A stretch of DNA of 64,000 nucleotides, from NCBI GenBank assembly GCA_943369575.1, contig CALRNP020000001.1, positions 1,129-65,128 on the forward strand. The letters run 5' to 3'. Origin of the DNA: Azorhizobium sp. AG788. GTDB taxonomy: Bacteria > Pseudomonadota > Alphaproteobacteria > Rhizobiales > Xanthobacteraceae. The position numbers and the translations under genes were made by a program. The notes beneath the pieces are model-generated. The model was not told the DNA's origin. It worked only from the letters and a program-made list of their open reading frames with translations, and made no database searches. This document shows positions 11,896-27,010 of the stretch, piece by piece (positions within the stretch are counted from its first letter, which is position 1; every line of letters starts with the position of its first letter).

Positions 11896-11930
11896 TAAGC
11901 CTTAATAAATCAAGGTCTTGCGAGGCCGGA

Positions 11931-12620
11931 TCAGCTGGTGGCTGCCACACGGTGTCCAGCGGTCAATTGATTCAGCACACGGTCCAGCGGCTCCACGTCG
12001 CCGAATTTCGCGTCGATGTCGAACAGGTTCCAGGCGATGGCTCCGGCGATGCGGTCGCCCACCGCTTCGCGCACCACGATCGGCCGGAAGCCCTCCGCCA
12101 TGGCATCTTCGGTGGAGTGGCGCACGCAGGCCGAGGCGGTGACGCCGGTGAGCACCACCGTATCAACGCCGATGGCCTTCAACAGGCTGGAGAGCGGGGT
12201 GCCGTGAAAGGCGCTGGCGCGCTTCTTCAGGATCACGAATTCCCCGTCGCGCGGGGCGAGGGCGGCGTCGATCTCCGCCTCCCAGCTCCCGGTCTTCATC
12301 GCCTCCAGCGGCACCTTGCGCGCCCACAGGCCCATGTCGGTCGCCGCGCCGGCGGTGACGTCATAGGCGGTGGTGGTGAAGACAATGGGCAGGCCCCTGG
12401 CGCGGAAGGCCGCGAGGAGGGCCTGATTGGCCGGGATCACCGTCTCCATGCCCGAGCAGGAAAACGGGCTGCCCGGCTGGGTCCAGCCATTGGCCATGTC
12501 GATGATGATGAGCGCCGGGCTGGTGCCGAAGCCCACCCGCCGCTCGAACCCCCGTTCGGCGTAGAAGGCGGAATTGGCGGCAAAAATCGACCCGAGGGTC
12601 TGGTTGAGCACATCGGTCAT
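11931..12620 (-). CDS. Isochorismatase-like cysteine hydrolase (N-carbamoylsarcosine amidase / biuret-hydrolase-type family)
   Basis: 229 aa. ALIIIDMANGW carries the catalytic Asp context, ILKKRASAF the Lys, and VVLTGVTASACVRHSTEDA the nucleophile Cys. It is the last gene of the operon. Confidence 0.85.
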   Translation of the reverse strand: MTDVLNQTLGSIFAANSAFYAERGFERRVGFGTSPALIIIDMANGWTQPGSPFSCSGMETVIPANQALLAAFRARGLPIVFTTTAYDVTAGAATDMGLWARKVPLEAMKTGSWEAEIDAALAPRDGEFVILKKRASAFHGTPLSSLLKAIGVDTVVLTGVTASACVRHSTEDAMAEGFRPIVVREAVGDRIAGAIAWNLFDIDAKFGDVEPLDRVLNQLTAGHRVAATS

Positions 12621-12647
12621 GGCTGGAGCTCCGCTGGTGGTGGGGCG

Positions 12648-13958
12648 TCAGGCGTCGGCGCGGTAGAGTGGGGTTTCCACATCGATGACCGGCGCCAGGG
12701 CTTCGCCCAGCGCCAGCAGTCGGGCATCGCCATAGCGCGGCGCCACGATCTGGACCCCCACCGGAAGGCCCATGGGGCCGGTGGTGCAGGGAATGCCAAG
12801 GCAGGGCACATGCAGCAGCGTCCAGATGGCGTTGAAGATGTGATTGCCGGTGTTGTAGGTGCCTTCCGGCGCCTCGCCGGGGGAGGCGGGGGTGAGCACC
12901 ACGTCGAAATCCGCATAGAGGGCTTCGAAGGCCCGCCGGCAATCGGCGGCGAGGTTATAGGCGGCGATCAACTGCTCCGAGGTGATGCCCAGGGCATTGG
13001 TGACCCGCTCATGGAAATCGGCGTGCAGGCGATCACCGAACTCCAGGGCCACGTCCAGGAACGAGGCGCGGCCCTCTGCCATCATGATGGTGTTCTGCGC
13101 CTCGAACAGGCCGTCGAATGCCGGAGGCAAGGTCAGCTCCACCAGGGTCGCCCCCGCCTTTGACAGCCGGGCGCAGGCGGCCTCCAGGGCTTTTTCGCCC
13201 GCAGGCTCGATCTTGTGCCAGGATGGCGATTTGCACCAAGCGACCTTCAGCGAGGAGACCTCCGGCACGGCGAGCGCCCCCGCATCGTCCAGGCGGAAGG
13301 CGGTGGCCACCAGGGTGAGGTCCGCCACCGAGCGGCCATACCAGCCGATGGTATCGAGCGAATTGGCATATTGCTTGGCGCCCTCGCGGCTGACCGCGCC
13401 CCAGGTGGGCTTCAGGCCATAGATGCCGTTGAACGAGGCCGGGCGGATGTGCGAGCCGCCGGTCTGGGTGCCGAAGGCAAGCTGTACCTGCCGGTCGCCC
13501 ACCGCGGCGCCCGAACCGGAGGAGGAGCCGCCCGGCGTATGGGTGAAATTCTTGGGGTTGCGGGTGGCAGCGCGGCGGCCGGCGGCGGCGAACTCCAGCG
13601 TGTCGGTTTTGCCCAGGATGACCGCACCGGAGCGCCGGGCAACCCCGACGCAGGCGGCATCGCGGGCCGGACGGTAATCCTGGAACACCGGGGAGTTATA
13701 GGTGGTGGGCATGTCGGCGGTGTCGATCATGTCCTTGACCCCGAACGGAAGCCCATGCAGCGGGCCCATGGGCGGGCGCTTGTCCAGTTCGCGCGCGGCG
13801 GCGATGGCCTGGGCCTTGTTCACATAAAGCCAGGCCTTCACCTGTGGGTCGCGCGCCTCGATGCGCGCCAGGCAGGAGCGGATGAGGGCTTCGCTGGTCA
13901 GCTTGCCATCGCGGATGTGGGCGGCCGCCTCGGCGGCGGTCAGAAAACAGGGTTCCAT
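12648..13958 (-). CDS. Amidase-signature (AS) family amidase, copy A5
   Basis: 436 aa. LPFGVKDM carries the catalytic Lys, [11 protein letters not shown] is the AS Gly/Ser-rich motif and GTQTGGSHIRPAS carries the Ser nucleophile. It is a close tandem paralogue of A4. Confidence 0.9.
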   Translation of the reverse strand: MEPCFLTAAEAAAHIRDGKLTSEALIRSCLARIEARDPQVKAWLYVNKAQAIAAARELDKRPPMGPLHGLPFGVKDMIDTADMPTTYNSPVFQDYRPARDAACVGVARRSGAVILGKTDTLEFAAAGRRAATRNPKNFTHTPGGSSSGSGAAVGDRQVQLAFGTQTGGSHIRPASFNGIYGLKPTWGAVSREGAKQYANSLDTIGWYGRSVADLTLVATAFRLDDAGALAVPEVSSLKVAWCKSPSWHKIEPAGEKALEAACARLSKAGATLVELTLPPAFDGLFEAQNTIMMAEGRASFLDVALEFGDRLHADFHERVTNALGITSEQLIAAYNLAADCRRAFEALYADFDVVLTPASPGEAPEGTYNTGNHIFNAIWTLLHVPCLGIPCTTGPMGLPVGVQIVAPRYGDARLLALGEALAPVIDVETPLYRADA

Positions 13959-13970
13959 GATGGGGCTTTC

Positions 13971-15299
13971 TCAGGCAGAGGCGAGGAGGCTGGCGCGGCT
14001 GGGGGCGAAATCGTCGAGCACGGGCTGCAGCGCCTGCGCCACGGCCAGAAGGCGAGTGTCGGACAGGCGCGGGCCGACGAGCTGGATGCCCACCGGCAGC
14101 CCCAGATCGCCCAGCACCGTGGGGATGGCAACGCAGGGCGTGTGCAGCAGAGTCCACAGGCCGTTGAAGATCCAATCGCCGACCGTGTGCAGGCCCTTGG
14201 GCGCTTCCCCGGTGGCGGCGGGGGCCAGCACCGCATCGAAGCCAGAGGCGATGGCATCGAATTCGCGGCGGCAGATGTCGGCGAAATCGTAGGCCGCGAC
14301 CAGCCGCTGGGGCGTCACGCCGCGTCCATTCTCCACCGTCAGCCGCAATTCGGGATGCATGCCGTCGCGGTCGCGCAGATATTCGTCATAGAGCGCCACC
14401 CGGCCGTCGCCGAACATGATCATGGTGTGGGCTTCCGACAGATCGGCGAAATGCGCCGGCAGCACGATCTCCTCGACGATGGCGCCCGCCCGCTGCAGGC
14501 GCTCCACCGCCGCCGCCATGGCCTGCTTCGCTCCGGCTTCGGCCTTGGCCCAATAGGGCGTTTCGCAATAGCCGATGCGCAGCCCGCGCGGATCGCGCGC
14601 TGCCAGATCCGTGATGCCCGGTAGTTGGAACGCCTGCGCCCCCAGGATCAGGTCATCGACGCTGCGGCCATACCAGCCCACCGTATCGAGGATGGGCGAG
14701 ATCATGTGCACGCCCTCGCGGCTCACCGTGCCCCAGGAGGGCTTGAGGGCGTAGATGCCGTTGAACGAGGCGGGGCGGATATGGGAGCCTGCGGTCTGCG
14801 TGCCGAAGGCGCAGGGTACCTGATAGTCGCCCACCGCCGCCCCGGAGCCCGAGGACGAGCCGCCCGGCGTGTGCGCCAGATTATAGGGATTGCGGCTGGC
14901 GGCCTTGCGGGAGTTGAAGGCGAATTCCACCGTGTCGGTCTTGCCGAGGATGATCCCGCCGTTGTGGCGGACGATAGCGACGCAGGCCGCGTCCCGCGTC
15001 GGCCGATGCTGCTGCCAGGCGGGCGAATTGTAGGTGGTGGGCATGTCGGCGGTGTCCATGATGTCCTTCACACCGAAGGGCAGGCCATGAAGCGGGCCGG
15101 CCGCCGGGCGCTTGTCCCGTTCGCGGGCCTGACGGATGGCCAGATCCGGGTCCACATGCAGCCAGGCCTTCACCGCCGGATCGCGCGCTTCGATGCGGGC
15201 GAGGCAGGAGCGGACCAGGGCCTCGCTGGTGAGGCGGCCGGCCTTCATCTCCGCCGCCGCTTGGGCGGCGGTGAGGAAGCAGGGTTCAATCGTGTTCAT
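13971..15299 (-). CDS. Amidase-signature family amidase, copy A4
   Basis: 442 aa from ATG 15299. Motifs [19 protein letters not shown] and GTQTAGSHIRPAS are present. The start overlaps the stop of the upstream mini-gene as ATGA. The track start at 15548 was rejected because it lies inside upstream genes. Confidence 0.9.
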   Translation of the reverse strand: MNTIEPCFLTAAQAAAEMKAGRLTSEALVRSCLARIEARDPAVKAWLHVDPDLAIRQARERDKRPAAGPLHGLPFGVKDIMDTADMPTTYNSPAWQQHRPTRDAACVAIVRHNGGIILGKTDTVEFAFNSRKAASRNPYNLAHTPGGSSSGSGAAVGDYQVPCAFGTQTAGSHIRPASFNGIYALKPSWGTVSREGVHMISPILDTVGWYGRSVDDLILGAQAFQLPGITDLAARDPRGLRIGYCETPYWAKAEAGAKQAMAAAVERLQRAGAIVEEIVLPAHFADLSEAHTMIMFGDGRVALYDEYLRDRDGMHPELRLTVENGRGVTPQRLVAAYDFADICRREFDAIASGFDAVLAPAATGEAPKGLHTVGDWIFNGLWTLLHTPCVAIPTVLGDLGLPVGIQLVGPRLSDTRLLAVAQALQPVLDDFAPSRASLLASA

Positions 15300-15505
15300 T
15301 TGGGATCTCGCAGGGCGGTCACGGTGAAGAGATGGGCGGGCTCGTCCTCTTCCGAGGGCATGCGCGGCAGCGCGAGGCCGGCCTCGCGTACGGTCTGGGC
15401 CAGTTCGGCGAGGCGGGCGAACTGGTCGTCCGGCAGGCCCGTGAGCCCGTGGCGTGCGGCATAGAGCCGGATCTCGTCGGTGGTGGAGGTCTGGATGTCG
15501 GACAT
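15296..15505 (-). CDS. GatC/AtzG-like small protein, copy G2
   Basis: 69 aa: MSDIQTSTTDEIRLYAARHGLTGLPDDQFARLAELAQTVREAGLALPRMPSEEDEPAHLFTV.... The helical N-terminus and acidic patch followed by EPAHxF resemble GatC and AtzG. SD GGAAGGA is upstream. It sits between two amidase genes. Confidence 0.6.
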   Translation of the reverse strand: MSDIQTSTTDEIRLYAARHGLTGLPDDQFARLAELAQTVREAGLALPRMPSEEDEPAHLFTVTALRDPK

Positions 15506-15520
15506 GCGGGTCCTTCCGGC

Positions 15521-16960
15521 TCAGAGCGCGGGACGGCGATCGCGCCACGGCGTCGCGGATTCATAGGCTTGGGCGATCTGCAACACGGTCGCCTCATCAA
15601 AGAAGCGGCCGACGATTTGCGCATTCAGGGGCAATCCGCCGGTATCATAGCCGGTGCAGATGGAGAGCGCGGGATGGCCGGTGACATTGAACACCGTGGT
15701 GGCGGTATCGGCAGTGAACGGTGTCACCGTGTCCGGTTCATCGAAGCGCGGCGCCACATGAAATGCGCCGGCGATCAGTAGCGCATCGCAGGATCGCACC
15801 AGGGCGTCGGTGGCGGCGACGAGAGTGCGGCGCAGCCGGGTGGCGGCCAGATAGTCCGCCGCGCGCACGGTGAAGCCGCACATCATCTTTTCGCGCAGGG
15901 CCTGACCCATTAGGGCGCTGCGCTCCAGAAAGTCCTGCTCGTGGATGGAATAGGATTCCGACCAATTGATCACCTTGGTCACGGAGCGGTAGTGCGCCAG
16001 CGGCGCCGGCAGGCGCACGTCGCGGATGATCGCCCCCTGACGCTCCAGGATGCGCGCGGCCTCCTCCAGGGCGGCGGCATTGGCGCCATCCAGATCCGCC
16101 CCCTCCGGGCCGAGGTCGCGGACGAAGCCGATCACACGGCCGCGCACGCCGGCATGCAGGGCCTGGCGATAGTCAGGCACCGGCACATGCGCGCTGGAGG
16201 GGTCGTCCGGATCGAAACCGGAGATGGCCTGCATTACGATGGCGCTGTCCTCCACCGTCCAAGTGAGGGGGCCGGTGTGGTCCAGGGTCCAGCAGTTCGG
16301 CAGGCAGTGCGCGCGGCTGACCCGGCCGAAGGTGGCCTTGAAGCCTTGCAGGCCGCAGGCCGCCGCCGGCAGGCGGATGGAGCCGCCGGTATCCGAACCC
16401 AGCGCGAACATGGCGGTTCCGGCGGCCACCGCCGCTCCCGCGCCGGTGGAGGAGCCGCCGGTGAAGCGGGCCAGATCCCAGGGGTTGCGCGCCACCGGGA
16501 ACGGCAGGTCGTGATAGACGCCGCCATTGCCGGTGCCATATTCCCAGGTGTTCAGCTTGCCCAGCAGGATCGCGCCCGCTGCTTCCAGCCGGGCCACGGC
16601 GGTGGAGGTGGTGGTGGCCATATGATCCAGCATCAGCCGCGAGCCGCCCGTGGTGGGGAGTCCGGCCACATGATAATTGTCCTTCACCGCGAACGGGACG
16701 CCGTGTAGCGGCCCCTTCCAACGTCCGGAATTGATCTCTCGCTCAGCAATGCGGGCCGCCGTCAGCGCCCGCTCGGCGGTGACCCTGATATAGCTGTGCA
16801 GGCGGGCATCGACGGCATCGATCCGGGCCAAGAAGGCTTCGGTGAGGGTGACGGGAGACAGGCTGCCGCTGCCGATGAGGCGGGAGGCCTCGGCCACGCT
16901 GAGGAAATGCAGCGGCGTGGCGGCGTGGGAGAATGCCGAGGCTGAACCTGAGGTGTTCAT
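15521..16960 (-). CDS. Amidase-signature family amidase (AtzE/GatA-like subgroup), copy A3
   Basis: 479 aa with VPFAVKDN, GGSSTGAGAAV and GSDTGGSIRLPA. The overall pattern parallels A1 and A2 (NPWDL..., DH.GP..., VED.A...). Confidence 0.9.
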   Translation of the reverse strand: MNTSGSASAFSHAATPLHFLSVAEASRLIGSGSLSPVTLTEAFLARIDAVDARLHSYIRVTAERALTAARIAEREINSGRWKGPLHGVPFAVKDNYHVAGLPTTGGSRLMLDHMATTTSTAVARLEAAGAILLGKLNTWEYGTGNGGVYHDLPFPVARNPWDLARFTGGSSTGAGAAVAAGTAMFALGSDTGGSIRLPAAACGLQGFKATFGRVSRAHCLPNCWTLDHTGPLTWTVEDSAIVMQAISGFDPDDPSSAHVPVPDYRQALHAGVRGRVIGFVRDLGPEGADLDGANAAALEEAARILERQGAIIRDVRLPAPLAHYRSVTKVINWSESYSIHEQDFLERSALMGQALREKMMCGFTVRAADYLAATRLRRTLVAATDALVRSCDALLIAGAFHVAPRFDEPDTVTPFTADTATTVFNVTGHPALSICTGYDTGGLPLNAQIVGRFFDEATVLQIAQAYESATPWRDRRPAL

Positions 16961-16969
16961 GACGACCTT

Positions 16970-18055
16970 TCATTCGGCGGGGGCACGCGCGGGGGTATGA
17001 CCCGGCGGCGATGGCAGCACGCCCGTGGCCCGCAGCAGGCGGAACAGATAGGGCGCGGACAGGATGACCAGGAAGATGCGGACCAGATGGAAGGCGACGA
17101 TGATCGGCACATCGAGATGCAACACCTTGGCCGTGATGCACATTTCGGTGACGCCTCCGGGGGAGGTGGCCAGGATCATGTTGGCTGGGGAGATGCCGGT
17201 GGCATACGCCACCAGCACGCCGACGGTGGCGCATCCGGCCATCAGCACCACCAAGTTCACCAGCGCGGCGGGAATGAACCGCCGCATGCTGTAGATGAGC
17301 GTGCGCTCGAACTGCGAGCCCACCTGGGCGCCGATCAGCACCTGGCCCGCCGCCGAGAGCCAGGGCGGGATGGCGGATAGGTTGGCTTCCGACAGGCCCA
17401 GCACGCAGCCCACCGCCATGGGCCCCAGCAGCCAGGCGTTGCGGAACCGAAACCGCGCCAGCACGGCGGAGAAGGCAAAGCCCGCCGCCAATGTCACCAC
17501 CAGCCCCAACGGGGCGAACGGCAGAACGCCATGGACGTTCGTGCTGTTGCCCCCGGCGCCGAACAGCGTCAGCGTGCTGGGGATGAGGATGGTGACCGAG
17601 ACCACGCGCAGCAATTGCGTCACCGCGATGGGGAGTGGCCGCCCGCCGAACCGTTCCCCGACCATGCTCATTTCGGCGATGCCGCCCGGCACGCTGCAGA
17701 AGAAGGCGGTGACGTGATCCACCCGCGCGGTCTTGGCCAGCAGGAAGGACGCGCCGGCGCCGACCACCAGGGTGGTCCCGCTCGCTGCGATGATCACCGG
17801 CAAGTAGGAGAGCACGGCCATGGCCGCCTCCGGGGTAAAATAGAGTCCCAGCGCGATCCCGAGAACCAGCATGCCGGCGATGCGGCCCTCGTTGGAGCCG
17901 GTCACCGGCAGGCCGAGAAAGGTGGCCAACCCGCTGAAGACGATGGGGCCGATCATCCACGGCAAGGGGGTGCCGATCCAGGCGAACAGGGCGCCGCCGG
18001 CCGCGCTGATGGCAAGGCCGAGCGCGACCCGGCGGAGATAACCGTGTGTGCGCAT
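16970..18055 (-). CDS. AbrB-family integral membrane protein (COG3180, 'putative ammonia monooxygenase' type; probable transporter)
   Basis: 361 aa from ATG 18055. It is highly hydrophobic with an internally duplicated architecture (GTPLPWMIGPIVFSG... and ...NAWLLGPMAVG...; GGIAEMS / GGVTEMC motifs). Confidence 0.7.
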   Translation of the reverse strand: MRTHGYLRRVALGLAISAAGGALFAWIGTPLPWMIGPIVFSGLATFLGLPVTGSNEGRIAGMLVLGIALGLYFTPEAAMAVLSYLPVIIAASGTTLVVGAGASFLLAKTARVDHVTAFFCSVPGGIAEMSMVGERFGGRPLPIAVTQLLRVVSVTILIPSTLTLFGAGGNSTNVHGVLPFAPLGLVVTLAAGFAFSAVLARFRFRNAWLLGPMAVGCVLGLSEANLSAIPPWLSAAGQVLIGAQVGSQFERTLIYSMRRFIPAALVNLVVLMAGCATVGVLVAYATGISPANMILATSPGGVTEMCITAKVLHLDVPIIVAFHLVRIFLVILSAPYLFRLLRATGVLPSPPGHTPARAPAE

Positions 18056-18066
18056 GGGAGGAGTGT

Positions 18067-19086
18067 TCAACTCGCGATCAGCAGCGGCGCCTTCGAAAAG
18101 GCGAGGCCTTCGGCATATTGCAGACAGCGGGCCTGCTGCCCGCCCCCGAGTGGTAGGAGATCCGGTTGCTGGCCGATGCACGGCTCGCGCGCGGCGGCAC
18201 AGCGCGGGGCGAAGGCGCAGCCGGGGGGCAGGTCGGTGAGGTCCGGCGGCGCGCCGGGAATGGGATCGAGCGCCACGCCGCGCATGTCGGCATGGATGGT
18301 CGAGTTCATAAGGCCCTGGGTGTAGGGGTGGCGCGGCTGGTCGATGACCTGTTCCACCGTTCCGGTCTCCACGAACTTGCCCGCGTACATCACCGCCACC
18401 TGGTCCGCGACCTCGCACGCCACCCCCAGATCGTGGGTCACGAAGATGGTGGCCATGCCCAGTTCGCGCTGCAGTTCCCGCAGCAGCAGCAGGATCTGGA
18501 TCTGGACGGTGGCATCAAGCGCGGTGGTGGGCTCGTCGGCCAGCAGCAGCTTGGGCTTGCAGGCGAGTGCCAGGGCGATCATCGCCCGCTGGCGCAGGCC
18601 GCCGGACAATTCGTGCGGATAGGCCTCCAGCCGCCGCTTGGCGGAAGGCACCTGCACCAGTTCCAGCAATTGCAGGGCGCGGGCGTTGGCAGCGCGGAAC
18701 GAGATGCCCTCGTGATAGACCAGGGTTTCGGCGATCTGCTGGCCGATGGTGAACACCGGATCCAGCGCGGTCATGGGCTCCTGGAAGATCATGGAAATCA
18801 GCCCGCCGCGGATGCGGCGCAGCTGGTGCTCCGCCAGGGCCAGCACGTCGATGCCATCCACGCGGATCGCGCCATCCAGCCGCGCGGTAGGCGGAAACAG
18901 GCGCATCAGCGCCCGCATGGTCACGCTCTTGCCCGAGCCGGATTCTCCCAGGATGCAGAGGGAGGAGCCACGATCCAGGGTGAAGGACACGCCATTGACC
19001 ACCGGCACATCCAGGTCGCGGCCGGTGAAGCGGACGGTGAGGTCATTGACCTCGACCAGGGGGGCGGTGATGTCGGGGGCGGTCAA
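18067..19086 (-). CDS. ABC transporter ATP-binding protein (DppD/OppD-like)
   Basis: Walker A GESGSGKS, signature LSGGLRQR, Walker B LLLADEPT and an oligopeptide C-terminal extension. The TTG start at 19086 has SD GGAAGGAGG 6 nt upstream and overlaps the upstream stop as TTGA. Confidence 0.85.
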
Positions 19087-20186: not shown

Positions 20187-20196
20187 GCCGTCCTCC

Positions 20197-21099
20197 CTAC
20201 TGCTTGACGTTCATGGCGCCGCGCAGGCCGTCGCTCATGAGGTTGAAGCACATGGAGGTGATGAAGATCATCACGCCGGGCAGCACGGCATTGAGCGGCG
20301 CCACATAGATGGACTGGCGCAGCGTGTTGAGCATCAGGCCCCATTCCGGCTCCGGCGGCGTGACGCCGAGACCGAGGAAGGACAGGCCCGCCGCGAGCAC
20401 GATGGAGACGCTGATCAGGCTGGAGGCATAGCTCAGGATCGGGCTCATCACATTGGGCACCACATGGGCGGTGACGATGCGCCAGTTGGCGGCGCCGGTG
20501 GCGCGGGCAGCCTCGATGAAATCCTGCGCGCGCATCTGCGTCGCCACGCTTTCCGCCACGCGGGCGATGGGCGGGATGAACACCAGGGTCAGGGAGAAGA
20601 TAGTGTTGCCGACACCGGCCCCGAGCACGCCGGAAATGGCCACCGCCAGGAGCACGGATGGGAAGGCGTAGAATACGTCGATGACGCGCATGATCACCAT
20701 GTTCACGGCGCCGCCCACATAGCCCGCGATCACGCCCAAGGTGCCGCCGATGGCGGTGGCCAGGATCACCGGCGCAAACCCCATGAACAGCGACAGTCGG
20801 CCGCCATAGATCAGCCGCGAGAGCAGGTCGCGGCCGAGTTCGTCGGTACCGAGCCAGTAGCGGGCATCGCCGGGGGCGATCAGCCGCCGCGCCATGCTGG
20901 TGCGATAGGGATCATGGGGGGCGACCCACGGTGCGAAGATGGCGGCCAGGAGGATGAGCATCAGCACGGCGAAGCACACCAGGCTCACCGGGTCGTGCAT
21001 CAGGCGGCGCAGCACATTGCGCCAGAAGCTGCGCGTGGCCGGGCGCTTGCCCTTGGCGGGGGCGCCGGAGCTGGCGAGGGCGATGGAGGGTTGCGACAT
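20197..21099 (-). CDS. ABC transporter permease (DppC/OppC-like)
   Basis: 300 aa, multi-pass, with the binding-protein-dependent transport EAA-type loop (FIEAARATGA). Confidence 0.9.
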   Translation of the reverse strand: MSQPSIALASSGAPAKGKRPATRSFWRNVLRRLMHDPVSLVCFAVLMLILLAAIFAPWVAPHDPYRTSMARRLIAPGDARYWLGTDELGRDLLSRLIYGGRLSLFMGFAPVILATAIGGTLGVIAGYVGGAVNMVIMRVIDVFYAFPSVLLAVAISGVLGAGVGNTIFSLTLVFIPPIARVAESVATQMRAQDFIEAARATGAANWRIVTAHVVPNVMSPILSYASSLISVSIVLAAGLSFLGLGVTPPEPEWGLMLNTLRQSIYVAPLNAVLPGVMIFITSMCFNLMSDGLRGAMNVKQ

Positions 21100-21111
21100 G
21101 AAAGGCTCCAG

Positions 21112-22065
21112 TCAGGCGCGCTTGATGCGGGGATCGACGGCGGTCTGCACCACATCGACGACGAGGTTGATCAGGACGAAGAACATGGCCAGCACCAGGA
21201 TCGTGCCCTGAAGCACCGGCAGATCGCGGGTGAAAATGGCGTTGTTCAAGAGAAAGCCGGTGCCGGGCCAGGAGAACACGGTCTCCACCAGAATTGAGCC
21301 ACCGAGCAATTGCGCCAGCTGCAGGCCCATCACCGCCAGCACTGCGGGCAGGGCGTTCTTGACCACATGGACGAAAATACGCCGGCCGGGCAGCCCCTTG
21401 GCCTGGAGCGTCTGCATGAAGTCCTGCTGGCGCACCTCGGCCACGGTGCCACGCACCGAGCGGGCGATGATGCCGGCCGGGATCACCGCCAGGGTCAGCG
21501 CCGGAAGGATGAGATATTGCAGGCTGTCCCAGCCGAAGCCGAAGGTGCCGGAGCCGCCTTCGCCCATGCCCGTGGCGGGCAAAAGATTGAGGTTGACCGC
21601 GAAGATCACCATCAGGACCATGCCGAGCCAGTAATGGGGAATGGACACGCCGGCGATGGACGCCGCCGTGACGATCCGGTCCGCCGGTTTGCCCACGAGA
21701 TAGCCGGACACGACGCCGGAGACGCAGCCCAGCACGAAGCCGAACAGCACGGCGGCGGACGCCAGGGTCAGTGTATTGACCAGAGCGGGTATGACTTCCG
21801 CCATCACCGGGCGCTGGGTCATGATGGATTCGCCGAAATCCCCCTGCGCCACATGGCCCAGCCATTTGAGATATTGCACCGGCAACGGTCGGTCGAAGCC
21901 GTAGGCGGTGCGGATCTGCGCCACGCGCTCGGGCGAAGCCCCCTCGGGAATGATCGCATTCAGCGGATCGCCCGGCGCAATGTGGATCAGCGCGAAGCAC
22001 ACCATCGAGACGCCCATGGCGATGGGGATGGTGTAGAGGATGCGGCGCAGCACATAGATCAGCAT
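21112..22065 (-). CDS. ABC transporter permease (DppB/OppB-like)
   Basis: 317 aa. The N-terminus MLIYVLRRILYTIPIAMGVSMVCFALIHIAPGDP is typical of DppB/OppB permeases. Confidence 0.9.
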   Translation of the reverse strand: MLIYVLRRILYTIPIAMGVSMVCFALIHIAPGDPLNAIIPEGASPERVAQIRTAYGFDRPLPVQYLKWLGHVAQGDFGESIMTQRPVMAEVIPALVNTLTLASAAVLFGFVLGCVSGVVSGYLVGKPADRIVTAASIAGVSIPHYWLGMVLMVIFAVNLNLLPATGMGEGGSGTFGFGWDSLQYLILPALTLAVIPAGIIARSVRGTVAEVRQQDFMQTLQAKGLPGRRIFVHVVKNALPAVLAVMGLQLAQLLGGSILVETVFSWPGTGFLLNNAIFTRDLPVLQGTILVLAMFFVLINLVVDVVQTAVDPRIKRA

Positions 22066-22173
22066 GGGGCGTCCTTTCGAGCGTCTGGCAGCCTCCCGGG
22101 CGCGCGTGCCGTCCGGGGATGGGCGCTGGGCCTGATCCGGTCGGAGCGCAGTGCGCGCCGACCGGATCCAGCA

Positions 22174-23811
22174 CTATTCGACGGTGACGGGCGTCAGATC
22201 CTGGAACCAGCTCTGGGCCTGGACGAAGCCCTTCACATTCGGCCGCATGGCGCGGGGATTGAGGTCGTGCACCACCCAGATCCACATGGCCTCATCGACG
22301 ATGTGGCTGTGCAATTCGGCCAGGATCTTGTTCTGCTCGGCGGGGTCGAACGCCGCCTTGGCCTTGAGCGACAGCTCATCGGTCTTGGCGTCCTTGAAGT
22401 CGCCCCAGTTGAAGCCGCCCGGCACCTTGGCGAAGGAGGCTGCGGTGCCGATCAGGCCAATGTCTGGGTCCCAATAGGCCCAGCTGTTGTTGATGCCGTG
22501 CCGGCCCTTGTTCTCCGGCGCCCAGGCCCCGAGGCGGCGGCGGGCGCGCAGGGCCTCCCAGTCCAGCACCTCGAATTCCAGGTCGATGCCCACGTCCTTG
22601 AAGTTCTCCTTGATGAACTCGTTCATGGGCAGGGGCAGCATCTGCCCCGAGCCGGACGGGGAGATGATGAACTTGGCCTTCACCGGCTTGTCGGGGCCGT
22701 AGCCCGCTTCCTTCAGCAGCTTCTTGGCCCCTTCGGGATCGTATTTGATCTCGAAGGTGGGCTTGCCGAACCAGGGATGCTTTTCGTCCACCATGCCCTT
22801 GGCCGGGGCGGCGAGGCCGCCCAGCAGCTTCACCAGCCCCTCGCGATCGATGGCGAGGTTGGCGGCCTTGCGCACGCGGACGTCCTTGAACGGCGAATCC
22901 TCCAGGAAGGAGAGCTGGTAGGGCCAGACATGGGGATAGAGATTGGTGACGATCTGCATCTTCTGCGACTTGAGGCGCGGCACCGCGTCCGGCGGCGGCG
23001 CCTCGATCCAGTCCACCTGGCCCGACAGCAGCGCGGCGACGCGGGTGTTGGCGTCGGGGATGGGCAGCAGCACCAGCCGCTCCGACTTGGGGATGCGGGT
23101 CTTGTCCCAGTGATTGGGGTTGCGGACCATCTCCGCCCGCTCGCGCGGCTTGAAGGATTCGAGAATCCATGGCCCGGTGCCGGAGGGTTTTTCGGCGAAC
23201 TTGCTCCAGTCCTTGCCAAGATCCTCCCAGCGCTTGGGGCTGGACATGAACAGGCCGGCAAGATTGTAGGGCAGGACCGCATCCACCCGCTTGGTAATGA
23301 CCTCCACCGTATAGTCGTCGATCTTGCGCCAGGAGCCGATGTTCGCGTCATAGGAGGCGGCCTGATTGGCCTGCGCCTGGTCGAACTGCGGTGCATCGGT
23401 CTTCATCAGCTTGTCGAAGTTCCACACCACCGCATCGGCGTTGAACTCGGAGCCGTCATGGAATTTCACCCCCTGCCGCAACTTGAAAGTCCAGATCTTC
23501 TGGTCCTTGGGGTCGACGATCCAGCTCTCGGCAAGGTCCGGAATGACCTGCGCCGCCTTGTCCGCCTTGGACAGGTCCCAGCGGGTGAGGCCGTCATAGA
23601 GCGTGATGCCCAGGAAGCGGATGCCTTCCGCGCCCTGGCTTGGCTGGCCGGTGGTGAGGGGAATGTCGGCGGCGGTCATGGCCACCCGCAGAACGCCCGG
23701 CTTGCTTTGCGCCTGAGCCGGCTCCAGGCCCAGTCCCAGCCCGGTAGCCGTCAGCGACACCGCCGTCAGCGATACCCCCGAAAGCAGCTTCATAAACGAA
23801 CGTCTGTTCAT
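22174..23811 (-). CDS. ABC transporter substrate-binding protein, family 5 (DppA/OppA/NikA-like)
   Basis: 545 aa with a signal peptide (MNRRSFMKLLSGVSLTAVSLTATGLGLGLEPAQA). The family-5 pattern is present (...LRQGVKFHDGSEFNADAVVWNF..., GTGPW...). Confidence 0.9.
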   Translation of the reverse strand: MNRRSFMKLLSGVSLTAVSLTATGLGLGLEPAQAQSKPGVLRVAMTAADIPLTTGQPSQGAEGIRFLGITLYDGLTRWDLSKADKAAQVIPDLAESWIVDPKDQKIWTFKLRQGVKFHDGSEFNADAVVWNFDKLMKTDAPQFDQAQANQAASYDANIGSWRKIDDYTVEVITKRVDAVLPYNLAGLFMSSPKRWEDLGKDWSKFAEKPSGTGPWILESFKPRERAEMVRNPNHWDKTRIPKSERLVLLPIPDANTRVAALLSGQVDWIEAPPPDAVPRLKSQKMQIVTNLYPHVWPYQLSFLEDSPFKDVRVRKAANLAIDREGLVKLLGGLAAPAKGMVDEKHPWFGKPTFEIKYDPEGAKKLLKEAGYGPDKPVKAKFIISPSGSGQMLPLPMNEFIKENFKDVGIDLEFEVLDWEALRARRRLGAWAPENKGRHGINNSWAYWDPDIGLIGTAASFAKVPGGFNWGDFKDAKTDELSLKAKAAFDPAEQNKILAELHSHIVDEAMWIWVVHDLNPRAMRPNVKGFVQAQSWFQDLTPVTVE

Positions 23812-23892
23812 GGACGGAAACCTTCCCTGCTCATGTCCGGTTGCTCGTCGTGCGTTTCCCAGAACCTGGCGACCGTTGGCGGCCGCTCGTTG

Positions 23893-25323
23893 TCATTGCG
23901 CGGCCAGGGCTTGCGCTGGCGCGTCGATCTCGGGCCGCCGGTGGCGGAATTGGGTGGCCCGCTCAAAGGCGTGCCCCAGGCGCAGCACCAGGGCATCCTC
24001 GCCCGGCCGGCCCGCAAGCTGCATGCCCAGCGGCAGACCGGCGGCGTCGAACCCGTTGCAAAGGGCAAGGGCAGGTTGGCCGGTCAGGTTGAATTGCGCG
24101 GTCAGGGAGGGCGTCTTCGCCCCGAAGAAGGTGGGCGGCTCGTCGGGCAGCAACTCCGGCGCCGGATGGGCGCTGCCGGCGGTGAGCAGGATGTCCACAT
24201 TCTTCATCACGGCGAAGGTGATGGCGGTGAGCTCGGCCCGCGCCCGCATGGCCTGCACATAGTCATCCGCCCGCAGCAGGGCGCCGGCGAGGATGCGGAA
24301 GCGCATGCTGCGGCCAAAATCCCGCGGCCGGGTGCGCAGATCGTGCTCATGCAGCGTGAAGATTTCCGCGGCGGTCAGCGGCATCTTGGAGTCGGTGAAG
24401 GTCCGCAGGCTCGGCAGGCTCACCTCCGAGACGATGCAGCCCAGGCGCCGAAAGGTCGCGATGCTCGCATCCATGGCGGCAATCACCGCCGGGTCGGCCT
24501 CCAGCTCGTCTTCATACCAGTGCCGTACCACGCCGATGCGCAGCCCTGCCACCGGCGCATTCAGGCCGGCGGCATAGTCCTCCGCTGGCAGATCCAGCGA
24601 GCCGGGATCGCCTGGATCGTAGCCGGCCATGACCTTGAGCATCAGGGCGCAATCCTCCACCGTCCAGGCCATCGGCCCGCAATGATCGAAGGAATAGGAA
24701 TTCGGCTGCACCCCGTAGCGGCTAACCAAGCCATAGGTGGGCTTGAGGCCGGCGATGCCGCACACGCTGGCCGGCATGCGGATGGAGCCACCCGTGTCGC
24801 TGCCCGTGGCTGCCGGACACAGGCCGGCGGCAATGGACGCGCCGGCACCGCTGGATGAGCCCATGGGCGAGCGCGAGAGGTCCCAGGGATTGCGGGCCGG
24901 CGGCCAGGGGAGGTCGAACGAGGGGCCGCCCATGGCGAATTCCCAGGTGGCCTGCTTGCCCAGCAGCACGCCGCCGCCCGCCCGCAGCCGCGCCTGCACG
25001 GCGCTGTCCTGCGTCGGCACATGGGTTGCCAGCAGCTTGGAGTGCGCCGTCGTCAACAGGCCGGCGGTGTCATAGATGTCCTTCAGGCCATAGGGGATGC
25101 CCTGCATGGGGCTGGTGTCGATGCCCTGCGCGAACAGGCGCTCCGCCGCACGGGCCTCGTCCAGCGCCCGCTCCGGCGTCAGGGTGATGAAGCTGTTCAG
25201 CGTGCTGTCCAGCGCCGCGATGCGGGCGAGATAGGCTTGGGTGAGTTCCACCGGAGAGAGCGTGCGGGCACGGAACCGGCGCCCGGCCTCGGCAATCGTC
25301 AGCTCGTGCAGGGGCGTGCCCAT
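23893..25323 (-). CDS. Amidase-signature family amidase (AtzE/GatA-like subgroup), copy A2
   Basis: 476 aa from ATG 25323, with IPYGLKDI, MGSSSGAGASI and GSDTGGSIRMPA. It is strongly similar along its whole length to A1 ([43 protein letters not shown]). Confidence 0.9.
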   Translation of the reverse strand: MGTPLHELTIAEAGRRFRARTLSPVELTQAYLARIAALDSTLNSFITLTPERALDEARAAERLFAQGIDTSPMQGIPYGLKDIYDTAGLLTTAHSKLLATHVPTQDSAVQARLRAGGGVLLGKQATWEFAMGGPSFDLPWPPARNPWDLSRSPMGSSSGAGASIAAGLCPAATGSDTGGSIRMPASVCGIAGLKPTYGLVSRYGVQPNSYSFDHCGPMAWTVEDCALMLKVMAGYDPGDPGSLDLPAEDYAAGLNAPVAGLRIGVVRHWYEDELEADPAVIAAMDASIATFRRLGCIVSEVSLPSLRTFTDSKMPLTAAEIFTLHEHDLRTRPRDFGRSMRFRILAGALLRADDYVQAMRARAELTAITFAVMKNVDILLTAGSAHPAPELLPDEPPTFFGAKTPSLTAQFNLTGQPALALCNGFDAAGLPLGMQLAGRPGEDALVLRLGHAFERATQFRHRRPEIDAPAQALAAQ

Positions 25324-25327
25324 GGGC

Positions 25328-25546
25328 TCAGTCTTCCCGCGGCATGAATTTGCGGGGATCGAACACATGGGCGGGCTCGTCGGCGCGGTCACGTCCGCGT
25401 CGCAGCCGCATCAGCATGGGCTCCACGTTGCCATATGCCTGGACCAGTTCCTCGAACAGGTCCGGGGGCAGATCGAGGCCGGCGTTGCGGGCCAGGATGG
25501 CGATCTCCTCGCGGGTGGCGGGCCGTGGCGGAACGGTGGTGGCCAT
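25328..25546 (-). CDS. GatC/AtzG-like small protein, copy G1
   Basis: 72 aa: MATTVPPRPATREEIAILARNAGLDLPPDLFEELVQAYGNVEPMLMRLRRGRDRADEPAHVFDP.... This is a GatC-like layout. SD AGGGAG is upstream. It lies 15 nt after the A1 stop and 4 nt before the A2 start. Confidence 0.6.
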   Translation of the reverse strand: MATTVPPRPATREEIAILARNAGLDLPPDLFEELVQAYGNVEPMLMRLRRGRDRADEPAHVFDPRKFMPRED

Positions 25547-25561
25547 GGTCGTGAGCTCCCT

Positions 25562-27010
25562 TCAGGCGAGGTGGGGCTTGGCGAGATGCCAGGAGGTGAA
25601 CCTCTGGTAGGCATCGCCGGCGCGCAGCACGGTGGCCTCATCAAAGGGGCGCCCGGCGATCTGCAGCGAGAGGGGCAGGCCCGTGGACGAAAAACCGCAG
25701 GGCAGGGCCAGGGCGGGCATGCCGGTGAGGCTGAAGGGCATGGTCACCAACTGGCGCTTCTTGAAGAAGTCCACGCCCTCCGGATCGGCAGGGTCGGCCG
25801 GCGCCAGCCAGCCGGCAGTGACGAAGAGATCGAAGCGGGCGAACTGCGCCATCAGGCGGGTGCTCAGCTCCGCGCGCCAGCGCATGGCCTGGACATAGTC
25901 TTCGGCGCGCACCAGCCCGCCCACCATGACCCGGCTTCGCAGCAGCTTGCTGAAGTCGCGCGGCCGAGTGCGCAAATCCTGTTCGTGCACCGAGAACAGC
26001 TCGGAAATGGAGATGGTGGTCTTGGCGTCCACATAGTCGCGTAGCGGATCGAGGGTCACGGGCTCAACGATGGCGCCGAGATCGCTCAGAACCTCCACGG
26101 CGGCATCTACGGCGGCGATCACCTCGTCGGTGGCGTCCTCTTCATACCAATGACGCACGAGGCCGATGCGCAGGCCCCGGATCGATCCGGTGAGGCCGGC
26201 GGCATAATCTGCCACCGGCGTGTCGATGGAGCCGGGGTCGCCGGGATCATATCCGGCGCAGGCACCGAGCATGAGCGCGCAATCCTCCGCCGAGCGGGCC
26301 ATTGGGCCGCAATGGTCGATGGAAAAGGTGTTCGGATGCACGCCGCGGCGGCTGACCCGGCCATAGGTGGGCTTGAGGCCGGTGATGCCGCACATGGCGG
26401 CGGGCCAGCGGATGGAGCCACCCGTATCGGTGCCGATGGCTGCCGGCACGAACCGCGCGCCCACCGCCGCGCCAGACCCGGACGAGGATCCGCCGGGCAG
26501 ATAGTCCCGGTCCCACGGGTTGCGCGCGGGCGGCCAGGGCAGATCCCAGGACGGGCCGCCGATGGCGAATTCGAAGGTGGAGGTCTTGCCGATCAGAACG
26601 CCTCCGGCCGCTTCCAGCTTTTGCGCAACGATGGCGCTGTGGTTCGGGATGCGGTCGGCGAAGATCCTGGAATGGGAGGAGGACAGGATGCCTGCGGTAT
26701 CGACATTATCCTTCAAAGCATAGGGGATACCGTGAAACGGGCCCCGGTCCTCGCCCTGGGCCAGTTCCGCCTCTGCCCGGCGCGCCTGGGTCAGGGCGGT
26801 TTCCGCGGTTACGGTGATGAAGCTGTTGAGGGCGCCGTCCAGCCGCGCAATCCGCTCCAGGCAGGCGGTGGCGACCTCGACCGGAGAGACTGTTCCGGCA
26901 CGCATCAAGCGGCCGAGGTCCGCGATGCCCAGATCGCTCAAGCCAATGTCGCCGGGGCTACGATCACCGATGCCGCTGTCTTCCTGTGCTGCAGATTGGG
27001 CAATCGACAT
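25562..27010 (-). CDS. Amidase-signature family amidase (AtzE/GatA-like subgroup), copy A1
   Basis: [19 protein letters not shown] and [12 protein letters not shown] are present. The start is uncertain: ATG 27010 was chosen, the track start is 27142, and neither has a strong SD. Confidence 0.85.

What the first reader, a model, noticed from the sequence alone, without database searches (positions are those of the whole stretch)
11931..27010. 14-gene operon with five amidases, two GatC/AtzG-like mini-proteins, an isochorismatase-like hydrolase and two uptake systems: candidate undescribed pathway for a multi-amide nitrogen compound
All 14 genes are on the minus strand with gaps of 27 nt or less, or overlaps, except the two spacers flanking the binding-protein gene. 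Transcription order is A1, G1, A2, family-5 SBP, two permeases, two ATPases, AbrB-type membrane protein, A3, G2, A4, A5, isochorismatase-like hydrolase (IHL). All five amidases keep the Ser-cisSer-Lys landmarks (xKD, GGSSxGxGA, T/Q-T-G/A-GS), so none looks like a dead paralogue. The only described system I know that combines an amidase-signature enzyme with a GatC-like mini-subunit is AtzE-AtzG (1-carboxybiuret hydrolase) of the cyanuric acid pathway. Biuret and triuret hydrolases (BiuH, TrtA) are IHL-family cysteine hydrolases, and allophanate hydrolase AtzF is another amidase-signature enzyme. No cyanuric acid hydrolase, urea carboxylase or AtzH is encoded inside this operon. The importer is a peptide/opine-type Dpp system rather than a urea or triazine-type system. 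The enzyme inventory therefore points to stepwise hydrolysis of a compound with several amide or ureido bonds that is not the known s-triazine route.
Basis: partly seen in the sequence, partly recalled or inferred. Interest (0 to 1): 0.85.

Follow-up and report, generated by a model that had tools for sequence, protein, structure and literature searches.

The report
Uncharacterised nitrogen-regulated multi-amidase uptake operon
This is a real, conserved 14-gene operon of Azorhizobium and its relatives that probably imports a small amide- or ureido-bearing nitrogen compound and strips ammonia from it, using amidases paired with a previously unclassified family of tiny GatC-like helper proteins; the substrate is still unknown.

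Summary
Fourteen co-directional genes lie at 11931-27010 (-), with the stated gaps, five amidase-signature (AS) enzymes with intact Ser-cisSer-Lys triads, two 69-72 aa mini-proteins, an isochorismatase-like hydrolase (IHL) and a Dpp-type ABC importer.

The whole cluster is conserved in Azorhizobium, Bosea and one Bradyrhizobium. It is annotated only generically, and I found no characterised orthologue.

New findings:
- G1 and G2 belong to a family missed by Pfam and NCBIfam (527 representatives). It has an invariant EPAH core (DEPAH in G1/G2), a GatC-like predicted fold and remote AtzG similarity. In 25 of 26 genomes it sits beside a GatA/AtzE-like amidase.
- The IHL is not BiuH/TrtA-like. It is 54% identical to Arthrobacter N-carbamoylsarcosine amidohydrolase.
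- A4 and A5 are malonamidase-E2-like.
- A divergent GntR/FCD regulator, two palindromic operator-like sites and a conserved sigma-54-type promoter flank A1, which suggests nitrogen control.
- The cluster is modular. The recurring set is A1-G1 plus the importer, usually with A3-G2 and one A4/A5-type amidase. A2, A5, the AbrB-type protein and the IHL are accessory.

No s-triazine or biuret pathway membership test was met. I rate this a new variant of a known kind, of moderate interest.

The parts
27494..28204 (+).
   Evidence: Pfam GntR 54.8 bits plus FCD 68.6 bits. An orthologue sits in the same divergent position in A. caulinodans, A. oxalatiphilum and Bosea.
27412..27421 (-). Operator-like site TTGTACACAA on the gntR side
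   Evidence: One of only two TTGTAYNCAA matches in the 64 kb window (0.07 expected). Conserved in 5 of the 6 orthologous gntR-A1 spacers; the sixth, L019, reads TCGTACACAA.
27098..27112 (-). Sigma-54-type -24/-12 promoter element TGGCAT-N5-TTGC, oriented towards A1
   Evidence: The only match in the window. Found 40-135 nt upstream of A1 in 9 related loci: Azorhizobium, Bosea, Bradyrhizobium, Methylobacterium.
27038..27047 (-). Operator-like site TTGTATCCAA between the promoter element and the A1 start codon
   Evidence: In orthologues it forms the perfect palindrome ATTGTATACAAT or ATTGTACACAAT.
25562..27010 (-). A1, AS amidase of the GatA/AtzE-like clade (482 aa)
   Evidence: PF01425 351 bits. 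AtzE models 305 bits (cut-offs 426 and 461) and GatA 303 bits (cut-off 481). 36% identical to AtzE, with the triad intact.
25328..25546 (-). G1, 72-aa GatC/AtzG-like mini-protein with the DEPAH motif
   Evidence: No Pfam or NCBIfam hit. 99 close homologues. AF2 pLDDT 87.6, two helices plus an extended tail. The top 7 Foldseek hits against the PDB are all GatC chains. hhalign against the AtzG family gives E 6.6e-5.
23893..25323 (-). A2, AS amidase, paralogue of A1 (55%); accessory
   Evidence: Absent in Bosea thiooxidans, Bradyrhizobium sp. LHD-71 and the Hyphomicrobiaceae MAG loci.
22174..23811 (-). Family-5 (Dpp/Opp/Nik-type) periplasmic binding protein with an RR-type signal peptide (MNRRSFMK)
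   Evidence: SBP_bac_5 279 bits. Best solved relatives are only 111-128 bits: HbpA, GsiB/YliB, DppA. Signal peptide seen.
22130..22172 (-). Long GC-rich hairpin directly after the SBP stop codon, in the 108-nt spacer
   Evidence: about 18-bp stem. The whole-spacer z-score is only -1.3, so this is descriptive, not statistical, evidence.
20197..22065 (-). Two ABC permeases (DppB-like and DppC-like)
   Evidence: BPD_transp_1 with BPD_transp_1_N or OppC_N.
18067..20186 (-). Two ABC ATPases (DppD-like and DppF-like), overlapping by 4 nt
   Evidence: ABC_tran plus oligo_HPY; overlap.
16970..18055 (-). AbrB-duplication integral membrane protein of unknown role; accessory
   Evidence: PF05145 269 bits and TIGR03082 228 bits. 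About 8-10 hydrophobic segments. Absent in LHD-71, B. oligotrophicum and the MAG loci.
15521..16960 (-). A3, AS amidase of the GatA/AtzE-like clade (43-45% identical to A1 and A2)
15296..15505 (-). G2, 69-aa paralogue of G1 with the DEPAH motif; overlaps A4 by 4 nt
   Evidence: Sub-threshold hit to PF13318 AtzG-like (13.1 bits, E 0.13).
13971..15299 (-). A4, malonamidase-E2-type AS amidase
   Evidence: 230 bits, aligned full-length to Bradyrhizobium MAE2 (1ock), with the GTQTxGSxIRPA motif shared.
12648..13958 (-). A5, paralogue of A4 (58%)
   Evidence: Only one A4/A5-type gene is present in the Hyphomicrobiaceae MAG loci.
11931..12620 (-). Isochorismatase-like cysteine hydrolase of the N-carbamoylsarcosine amidohydrolase clade; accessory
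   Evidence: 1nba 251 bits, 54% identity over 213 aa. D41, K132, C165 and R190 align with D51, K144, C177 and R202. BiuH model 48 bits against a cut-off of 370.

Best explanation
This is a chromosomal catabolic operon for organic nitrogen.

Regulation (inferred). A sigma-54-type promoter, presumably driven by a nitrogen-responsive activator, is gated by the divergently encoded GntR/FCD regulator. That regulator would bind two TTGTAnACAA palindromes, one of which lies between the promoter and A1.

Uptake (family membership shown, ligand inferred). A Dpp/Opp-type ABC importer, with a periplasmic family-5 binding protein, brings in a small, probably anionic, peptide-like or ureido/amide compound, or a set of related ones.

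Hydrolysis (families shown, substrates inferred). Ammonia is released from terminal carboxamide or ureido groups by three kinds of hydrolase:
1. GatA/AtzE-like amidases (A1, with or without A2, and A3). Each works as a complex with a non-catalytic GatC/AtzG-like mini-subunit (G1, G2) that I infer it needs for folding or solubility, as AtzE needs AtzG.
2. Two malonamidase-E2-type amidases (A4, A5), acting on short omega-amido-carboxylates ('half-amides').
3. An N-carbamoylsarcosine-amidohydrolase-type cysteine hydrolase, which removes a carbamoyl group from an N-carbamoyl (N-substituted) amino acid.

The recurring set is A1-G1 plus the importer, usually with A3-G2 and one MAE2-type amidase. A2, A5, the AbrB-type membrane protein and the IHL are lineage-specific additions.

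Shown here: gene anatomy, family assignments, intact catalytic residues, synteny, G-amidase adjacency and conserved regulatory motifs. Inferred: physical complexes, substrate class, order of steps and nitrogen control.
For: - Anatomy and tight spacing.
- Family assignments.
- Catalytic triads intact in all five amidases and in the IHL.
- Whole-cluster synteny with differing flanks in A. oxalatiphilum, metagenome contigs, Bosea and Bradyrhizobium sp. LHD-71.
- The G family has 527 representatives at E<=1e-3, nearly all 57-110 aa.
- Of 26 genomic loci holding a G gene, 25 have a GatA/AtzE-like amidase gene directly adjacent on the same strand, within 200 nt. The 26th is cut by a contig end.
- The G1 model is confident (pLDDT 87.6): helix-turn-helix plus an extended tail.
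- Its seven best Foldseek matches among 350,542 PDB chains are all GatC chains, and AtzG ranks 33rd.
- The G-family profile finds S. aureus GatC at rank 2, in register at the N-terminus (E 0.034).
- hhalign of the G family against the AtzG family is colinear over 58 columns (E 6.6e-5, probability 64%). DEPAHVFxP aligns with ELAEIYRPAPF.
- AtzG is a non-catalytic, obligate partner of AtzE (PMC6219798).
- The sigma-54 element occurs once in the window and is conserved in 9 loci.
- The operator-like pair occurs only in this spacer (0.07 expected) and is conserved wherever gntR is adjacent.
- A4 matches MAE2 full-length. The IHL is 54% identical to a characterised CSHase.
Against: - No substrate is identified.
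- The binding protein is distant from every solved relative (128 bits at best).
- G1 and G2 miss all curated GatC and AtzG models. Each individual Foldseek or HMM value is statistically weak (E 0.03-0.9).
- The G-amidase complex is inferred from adjacency and analogy only.
- Gene order (amidase then G, or G flanked by two amidases) differs from atzG-atzE and gatC-gatA, so which amidase each G binds is open.
- No enhancer-binding protein is encoded nearby, and the simple promoter/terminator scan gave nothing above chance.
- Co-transcription was not shown.
Confidence: 0.6

Rival explanations
1. The cluster is a composite amide-scavenging island, not one stepwise pathway. Paralogous amidases each take a different but related amide substrate delivered by a broad-specificity importer.
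For: A1/A2 (55%), A4/A5 (58%) and G1/G2 are paralogue pairs. A2, A5, the AbrB-type protein and the IHL are individually absent in relatives. A second binding protein is added in A. caulinodans and B. spartocytisi. An extra amidase, IHL and M20 peptidase are added in metagenome contigs.
Against: There is a single regulator and a single promoter region. A1-G1, A3-G2 and one A4/A5-type gene recur together even in the rearranged Hyphomicrobiaceae loci, which suggests they are functionally interdependent.
Confidence: 0.3
2. The cluster is a variant of the biuret, triuret or 1-carboxybiuret (cyanuric acid) route, with AtzEG-like, AtzF-like and BiuH/TrtA-like steps.
For: An AS amidase with a GatC/AtzG-like subunit recalls AtzEG. 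AtzE models are among the top hits for A1 and A2. G2 has a faint hit to PF13318.
Against: A1-A3 score 246-306 bits against AtzE cut-offs of 426 and 461, and score equally well against GatA and generic amidase models. The IHL scores 48 bits against BiuH (cut-off 370) and 30-36 bits against BiuH/TrtA structures. There is no AtzD, AtzH or AtzF. The importer is peptide-type.
Confidence: 0.07
3. The pathway passes through N-carbamoylsarcosine (creatinine, N-methylhydantoin or creatine-related), with the IHL as a true EC 3.5.1.59 enzyme.
For: The IHL is 54% identical to Arthrobacter CSHase over its full length, with the catalytic triad and Arg202 conserved.
Against: No creatininase, N-methylhydantoinase, creatinase or sarcosine oxidase was found among the window ORFs scanned with Pfam. 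The IHL is absent from the more distant clusters that keep the recurring genes. AS amidases have no known role in that route.
Confidence: 0.12
4. The operon takes up and deamidates amidated peptides, Asn/Gln-containing dipeptides, gamma-glutamyl amides or amide-bearing opines.
For: The importer is Dpp/Opp-type. Its nearest solved relatives bind glutathione and dipeptides. Peptide amidase is among the solved AS relatives.
Against: Similarity to those binding proteins is low (111-128 bits). No peptidase lies in the core cluster. The MAE2-type and CSHase-type enzymes point to small non-peptide acids.
Confidence: 0.15
5. The amidase-G complexes are glutaminase-type ammonia donors for a biosynthetic amidotransfer, as in GatCAB, rather than catabolic enzymes.
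For: GatA is the best solved match for A1 (289 bits), and G1 has a GatC-like fold.
Against: There is no GatB-like or other synthetase or ligase partner in the operon. The amidases are coupled to an importer and a catabolic-type regulator. GatA model score is 303 against a cut-off of 481.
Confidence: 0.03

Closest known systems
AtzE-AtzG 1-carboxybiuret hydrolase and the widespread atzG-atzE-atzH clusters (Pseudomonas sp. ADP; PMC6219798)
   Same: A GatA-derived AS amidase is encoded next to a mini-protein of about 70 aa. The G1 model has the same two-helix-plus-tail shape as GatC, and the G family shows remote profile similarity to AtzG. Both kinds of cluster often sit with ABC transporters and further amidases for nitrogen-compound catabolism.
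   Different: A1-A3 are only about 36% identical to AtzE and fall below the family cut-offs. G1 and G2 form a separate sequence family with a DEPAH motif that PF13318 does not detect. The gene order is amidase then G. There is no AtzH. Two amidase-G pairs occur in one operon.
GatCAB tRNA-dependent amidotransferase
   Same: GatA is the best solved match for A1. GatC chains are the best structural matches for G1.
   Different: There is no GatB. GatA model score is 303 against a cut-off of 481. Pfam GatC does not match. The context is catabolic.
N-carbamoylsarcosine amidohydrolase (Arthrobacter sp., PDB 1NBA)
   Same: 54% identity over 213 aa. The Asp-Lys-Cys triad and Arg202 are conserved.
   Different: The genomic context lacks the creatinine and N-methylhydantoin enzymes. 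The substrate is untested. The gene is accessory within the cluster family.
Malonamidase E2 (Bradyrhizobium japonicum, PDB 1OCK)
   Same: A4 and A5 align full-length (230 bits) and share the GTQTxGSxIRPA active-site motif.
   Different: Identity is moderate. Here the enzyme is duplicated and embedded in a transport operon. In several genomes its gene directly follows or precedes a G gene.
BiuH/TrtA biuret and triuret hydrolases
   Same: They share the isochorismatase-like cysteine hydrolase superfamily.
   Different: They belong to a different clade: 48 bits against a cut-off of 370, and 30-36 bits against the solved structures.

Membership tests
AtzE-AtzG (1-carboxybiuret hydrolase) | The amidase scores above the NCBIfam AtzE cut-offs (TIGR02715 425.75; NF006631 461) | tested here: not met
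   A1 scores 305.6 and 305.0, A2 285.9 and 286.0, A3 246.2 and 258.9 bits.
AtzE-AtzG (1-carboxybiuret hydrolase) | The small subunit matches Pfam PF13318 AtzG-like above the gathering score (24) | tested here: not met
   G1 has no hit and G2 scores 13.1 bits. Only 1 of 100 G-family members matched weakly. Remote homology alone is seen: hhalign probability 64%, E 6.6e-5.
AtzE-AtzG (1-carboxybiuret hydrolase) | atzG-atzE-atzH gene order with an AtzH (DUF3225) partner | tested here: not met
   The order here is amidase-G-amidase, and no AtzH-type gene lies in the operon.
AtzE-AtzG (1-carboxybiuret hydrolase) | Obligate amidase/mini-subunit complex | not testable with these tools
   Only adjacency supports it: 25 of 26 loci.
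GatCAB | GatA equivalog score (TIGR00132 cut-off 481.1) and a GatB partner | tested here: not met
   The best score is 302.9 bits. There is no GatB domain in the operon.
GatC-like fold (superfamily level) | Two N-terminal helices plus an extended tail that superposes on GatC | tested here: met
   AF2 pLDDT 87.6. Foldseek ranks 1-7 are all GatC chains, but with weak E-values of 0.28-0.93. The profile hit to 2df4_C has E 0.034.
N-carbamoylsarcosine amidohydrolase clade of isochorismatase-like hydrolases | Asp-Lys-Cys triad, Arg202, and high full-length identity to the characterised enzyme | tested here: met
   D41, K132, C165 and R190 align; 54% identity; 251 bits.
N-carbamoylsarcosine amidohydrolase clade of isochorismatase-like hydrolases | Activity on N-carbamoylsarcosine | not testable with these tools
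   An enzyme assay is needed.
BiuH/TrtA | NCBIfam BiuH equivalog NF050097, cut-off 370 | tested here: not met
   48 bits. BiuH 6xjm scores 34 bits, and the 'cysteine hydrolase' entries 6xix and 6xj4, which I take from memory to be TrtA, score 31-36 bits.
Malonamidase E2-type AS amidases | Full-length alignment, Ser-cisSer-Lys triad and the SxIRPA motif | tested here: met
   230 bits, covering residues 6-408 of 412. Triad shown. Activity was not tested.
Dpp/Opp-type ABC importer | Family-5 binding protein, two permeases, and two ATPases with the oligo_HPY C-terminal domain | tested here: met
Sigma-54-dependent promoter | GG at -24 and GC at -12 with canonical spacing, conserved and oriented towards the operon | tested here: met
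   TGGCAT-N5-TTGC at 27098-27112 is the only match in the window and is conserved in 9 loci. The activator and actual RpoN dependence were not tested.

The most novel reading that the evidence does not exclude
The DEPAH mini-proteins form a new, widespread branch of the GatC/AtzG superfamily. Like GatC in GatCAB, they would bridge two different enzymes, here a GatA-like amidase and a second amidase (A1-G1-A2; A3-G2-A4). This would give multi-amidase complexes that pass unstable N-carboxy or half-amide intermediates from one active site to the next. The operon would then encode a new catabolic route for a natural ureido/amide compound used by plant-associated Hyphomicrobiales.
Probability: 0.12. 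Interest if true: 0.75.

Novelty: new variant of a known kind. Interest (0 to 1): 0.45.

Why it matters
- It defines an unannotated but widespread family of mini-proteins (527 clusters at 50% identity, all labelled 'hypothetical'). These almost always accompany GatA-like amidases, so heteromeric AS amidases may be much commoner than the single AtzEG example suggests.
- This has practical weight. Such amidases may be insoluble or inactive when expressed alone, as AtzE is, which affects enzyme discovery for amide, urethane and urea-derivative degradation.
- The operon itself is a clean, conserved, probably nitrogen-regulated candidate for a missing organic-nitrogen catabolic route in rhizobia. 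It comes with a regulator and a binding protein that can be screened for the ligand.

Tried and rejected
- Pfam and NCBIfam on G1 and G2, including at E<=10: nothing above threshold.
- Sequence and narrow-profile searches of G1 and G2 against the PDB: no GatC or AtzG hit. Only the broad 100-sequence profile reached GatC, and only marginally.
- Megablast of the whole cluster against plasmids: only short fragments at 70-78%, so no close plasmid copy exists.
- tblastn of AtzG against plasmids gave too few relatives to build a profile. I replaced it with a protein database search.
The narrower alignment worked.
- The generic sigma-70 promoter and intrinsic terminator scan found no more than chance.
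- Folding of the spacers gave no significant z-scores.
- Literature searches for AtzG, GatC, carbamoylsarcosine, malonamidase and the A. caulinodans locus tags found no characterised orthologue. The original AtzEG structure paper was not held.
- Neighbours of distant G-amidase pairs (cysDN, glyoxalase, circularly permuted ATP-grasp, acyl-CoA ligase, thiolase-like) gave no substrate clue.
- The rest of the window holds no sarcosine, creatinine, urea-carboxylase or triazine genes among the ORFs scanned.
- I considered modelling an A1-G1 complex. The structure tool takes single chains from the window only, so this was not done.

Full report
**1. Observation**

The gaps are 15, 4, 81, 108, 12, 10, -4, 11, 9, 15, -4, 12 and 27 nt.

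Pfam and NCBIfam confirm:
- five amidase-signature (AS) proteins, A1 to A5;
- a family-5 binding protein, two permeases and two ATPases with the oligo_HPY domain;
- an AbrB-duplication membrane protein;
- an isochorismatase-family protein (IHL).

The two ORFs of 72 and 69 aa (G1, G2) match no curated family.

Alignment with AtzE from pADP-1 shows the catalytic Lys, cis-Ser and nucleophile Ser invariant in all five amidases.

The paralogy is: A1/A2 55%, A1/A3 43%, A2/A3 45%, A4/A5 58%, A1-A3 against A4-A5 about 30%, and G1/G2 36%.

By exact protein matches the window comes from an Azorhizobium genome. Public records annotate the products only as 'amidase', 'isochorismatase family protein', 'AbrB family transcriptional regulator' and 'hypothetical protein'.

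**2. What the enzymes are**

No amidase reaches any NCBIfam curated cut-off.

A1-A3 sit in the GatA/AtzE-like branch. Their best solved relatives are GatA (289 bits) and AtzE 6c62 (241 bits). They score about equally against the AtzE, GatA and generic amidase models, and A1 is 36% identical to AtzE.

A4 and A5 are different. Their best solved relative by far is Bradyrhizobium malonamidase E2 (230 bits, full-length, with a shared GTQTxGSxIRPA motif).

The IHL is not a BiuH/TrtA-type enzyme. It scores 48 bits against the BiuH model (cut-off 370), 60 bits against RutB, and about 30-36 bits against BiuH/TrtA structures. Against Arthrobacter N-carbamoylsarcosine amidohydrolase (1NBA) it scores 251 bits at 54% identity over 213 residues. 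The triad D51/K144/C177 and Arg202 are conserved as D41/K132/C165/R190. Maleamate amidohydrolases come next, at about 105 bits.

The binding protein is distant from every solved relative. The best matches are HbpA at 128 bits, then GsiB/YliB and DppA. It carries an RR-type signal peptide.

**3. The mini-proteins**

G1 has 99 close homologues, all unannotated, across Azorhizobium, Bosea, Bradyrhizobium, Methylobacterium and many metagenomes. G2 has a narrower set of 20. The two families share an invariant EPAH core, which reads DEPAH in both G1 and G2.

A profile of both families finds 527 representatives at E<=1e-3 among 1.84 billion cluster representatives. Nearly all are 57-110 aa. Of 100 of these scanned, none matches Pfam GatC and only one weakly matches AtzG-like. 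So this is a distinct family that the curated libraries miss.

Four independent but individually weak lines tie it to GatC and AtzG:
- The broad profile hits S. aureus GatC at rank 2, in register at the N-terminus (E 0.034).
- AlphaFold2 gives a confident model (pLDDT 87.6) of two helices followed by an extended tail.
- Its seven best Foldseek matches among 350,542 PDB chains are all GatC chains. Further GatC chains follow, and AtzG ranks 33rd (E 0.28-0.93).
- hhalign of the G family against an AtzG-family alignment is colinear over 58 columns (E 6.6e-5, probability 64%). DEPAHVFxP aligns with ELAEIYRPAPF.

The strongest functional evidence is genomic. A scan of 185,579 species genomes returned 26 loci with a G gene, all alphaproteobacterial. 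In 25 of them a GatA/AtzE-like amidase gene lies directly adjacent on the same strand, upstream, downstream or on both sides. The 26th is cut off by a contig end.

AtzG is known to be a non-catalytic, obligate partner without which AtzE is insoluble (PMC6219798). By analogy, I infer that G1 and G2 are structural subunits of A1 (and possibly A2) and of A3.

**4. Conservation and modularity**

The complete 14-gene order recurs in A. oxalatiphilum and in metagenome contigs. Those contigs add a further amidase, a second IHL and an M20 peptidase. Bradyrhizobium sp. LHD-71 lacks A2 and the AbrB-type gene, and some Bosea lack A2. A. caulinodans and B. spartocytisi carry a second binding-protein gene. 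Flanking genes differ between genomes.

More distant Hyphomicrobiaceae MAGs keep [A4/A5-type, G2, A3] divergent from [A1, G1, importer], with no IHL. One MAG has A1-G-A2-IHL followed by the importer.

Acetobacteraceae and Roseicella loci show an A5-like gene, then G, then an A2-like gene. Still more distant amidase-G pairs sit beside cysDN and ATP-grasp genes.

The recurring set is therefore A1-G1 plus the importer, usually with A3-G2 and one MAE2-type amidase. A2, A5, the AbrB-type protein and the IHL are accessory.

**5.

A GntR/FCD regulator is encoded divergently at 27494-28204, and this position is conserved in the closest relatives. Aligning the gntR-A1 spacers of seven genomes reveals three conserved elements.

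- Two are TTGTAnACAA palindromes, at 27412-27421 and 27038-27047. They are the only two TTGTAYNCAA matches in the window, against 0.07 expected. This is the shape typical of GntR-family operators, which I state from general knowledge.
- The third is a sigma-54-type -24/-12 element, TGGCAT-N5-TTGC, at 27098-27112 and pointing at A1. It is the only match in the window. A single match is not rare by chance: 32 of 100 shuffles had at least one. Its weight comes from position and conservation, since it lies 40-135 nt upstream of A1 in nine loci, including Bradyrhizobium and Methylobacterium.

This suggests activator-dependent, probably nitrogen-controlled, transcription gated by a ligand-responsive repressor. 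It also supports ATG 27010 as the A1 start.

The generic promoter and terminator scans were uninformative. A long hairpin follows the binding-protein gene.

**6. Mechanism**

The best-supported reading is a nitrogen-scavenging catabolic operon. It would import a small, probably anionic, amide or ureido compound, or a few related ones. Ammonia would be released from terminal -CONH2 or ureido groups by heteromeric GatA-like amidases, MAE2-type half-amide amidases and, in this lineage, a CSHase-type decarbamoylase.

All characterised relatives (GatA, AtzE, MAE2, CSHase, maleamate amidohydrolase) act on a terminal amide or ureido group close to a carboxylate. That is the basis for the substrate-class inference.

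Chemically coherent candidates are acyl-ureas and N-carbamoyl acids, such as ureidomalonate going to malonamate and then malonate, or oxalurate going to oxamate. This is inference only.

**7. Comparison with known systems, and novelty**

The kind of system is known: a GatA-derived amidase with a GatC-derived mini-subunit inside ABC-transporter and amidase clusters for nitrogen compounds (AtzEG and the atzG-atzE-atzH clusters). This locus fails every tested membership criterion for AtzEG, GatCAB and BiuH/TrtA.

It differs in several ways:
- its mini-subunit family is separate and unannotated;
- it has two amidase-G pairs;
- the gene order is different;
- it lacks AtzH;
- it has MAE2-type and CSHase-type partners;
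- it has sigma-54 and GntR/FCD control.

I found no characterised orthologue. I rate it a new variant of a known kind, with moderate interest (0.45). The most valuable by-product is the definition of the DEPAH mini-protein family.

Noticed in passing
window 22130-22172 (-): A GC-rich hairpin of about 18 bp lies immediately after the binding-protein stop codon and has no U-tract. It may act as an intercistronic mRNA stabiliser or attenuator that raises binding-protein expression relative to the membrane components.
   Followed up: partly
window 28305-41561 (-): A second long co-directional cluster lies upstream of gntR: GMC oxidoreductase, FAD-linked oxidase, a fused E1 dehydrogenase/transketolase-like protein, SDR, shikimate-dehydrogenase-like protein, aldehyde dehydrogenase and a Liv-type ABC importer. 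It is probably a separate catabolic unit.
   Followed up: no
window about 11244-11618 (+): A SnoaL_2 (NTF2-superfamily) domain ORF lies convergent to the end of the operon. AtzH is also NTF2-superfamily but from a different family (DUF3225). This ORF is not next to the cluster in A. oxalatiphilum or LHD-71, so it is probably unrelated.
   Followed up: partly
window 53996-59556: A sensor kinase and response regulator pair (minus strand) sits next to an ATP-dependent PEP carboxykinase gene (plus strand). This resembles the chvG-chvI and pckA neighbourhood that I recall from rhizobial chromosomes, and would place the window on the chromosome. The identification is from memory and was not tested.
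   Followed up: no
L007 13409-17156: Metagenome contigs that carry the full cluster continue with a sixth AS amidase (51% to A3), a second isochorismatase-like gene (44% to the IHL) and an M20 peptidase.
   Followed up: partly
P0122, P0152, P0255: Three giant proteins (2,558-3,382 aa) match only the N-terminal helix region of the G profile, in 5-14 repeated stretches. This is probably an unrelated EF-hand-like or dockerin-like repeat.
   Followed up: no
L034-L036 around 8575-12400: Distant amidase-G pairs in uncultured Alphaproteobacteria and Stellaceae sit between sulfate-assimilation genes (cysD, cysN/C) and glyoxalase and circularly permuted ATP-grasp genes. This is a quite different context for the same pair.
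   Followed up: partly
window 21310-24858 (+): A 1,182-codon open frame lies antisense to A2, the binding protein and Perm1. It is a shadow ORF typical of high-GC DNA and failed the GC3/GC2 filter used for rough gene calling.
   Followed up: yes
window 12001-26000 versus 1-12000: The operon is richer in G+C (0.65-0.69) than the left flank (0.60-0.63). Its flanking genes differ between genomes, which is compatible with past lateral acquisition. No mobile-element genes were seen.
   Followed up: no
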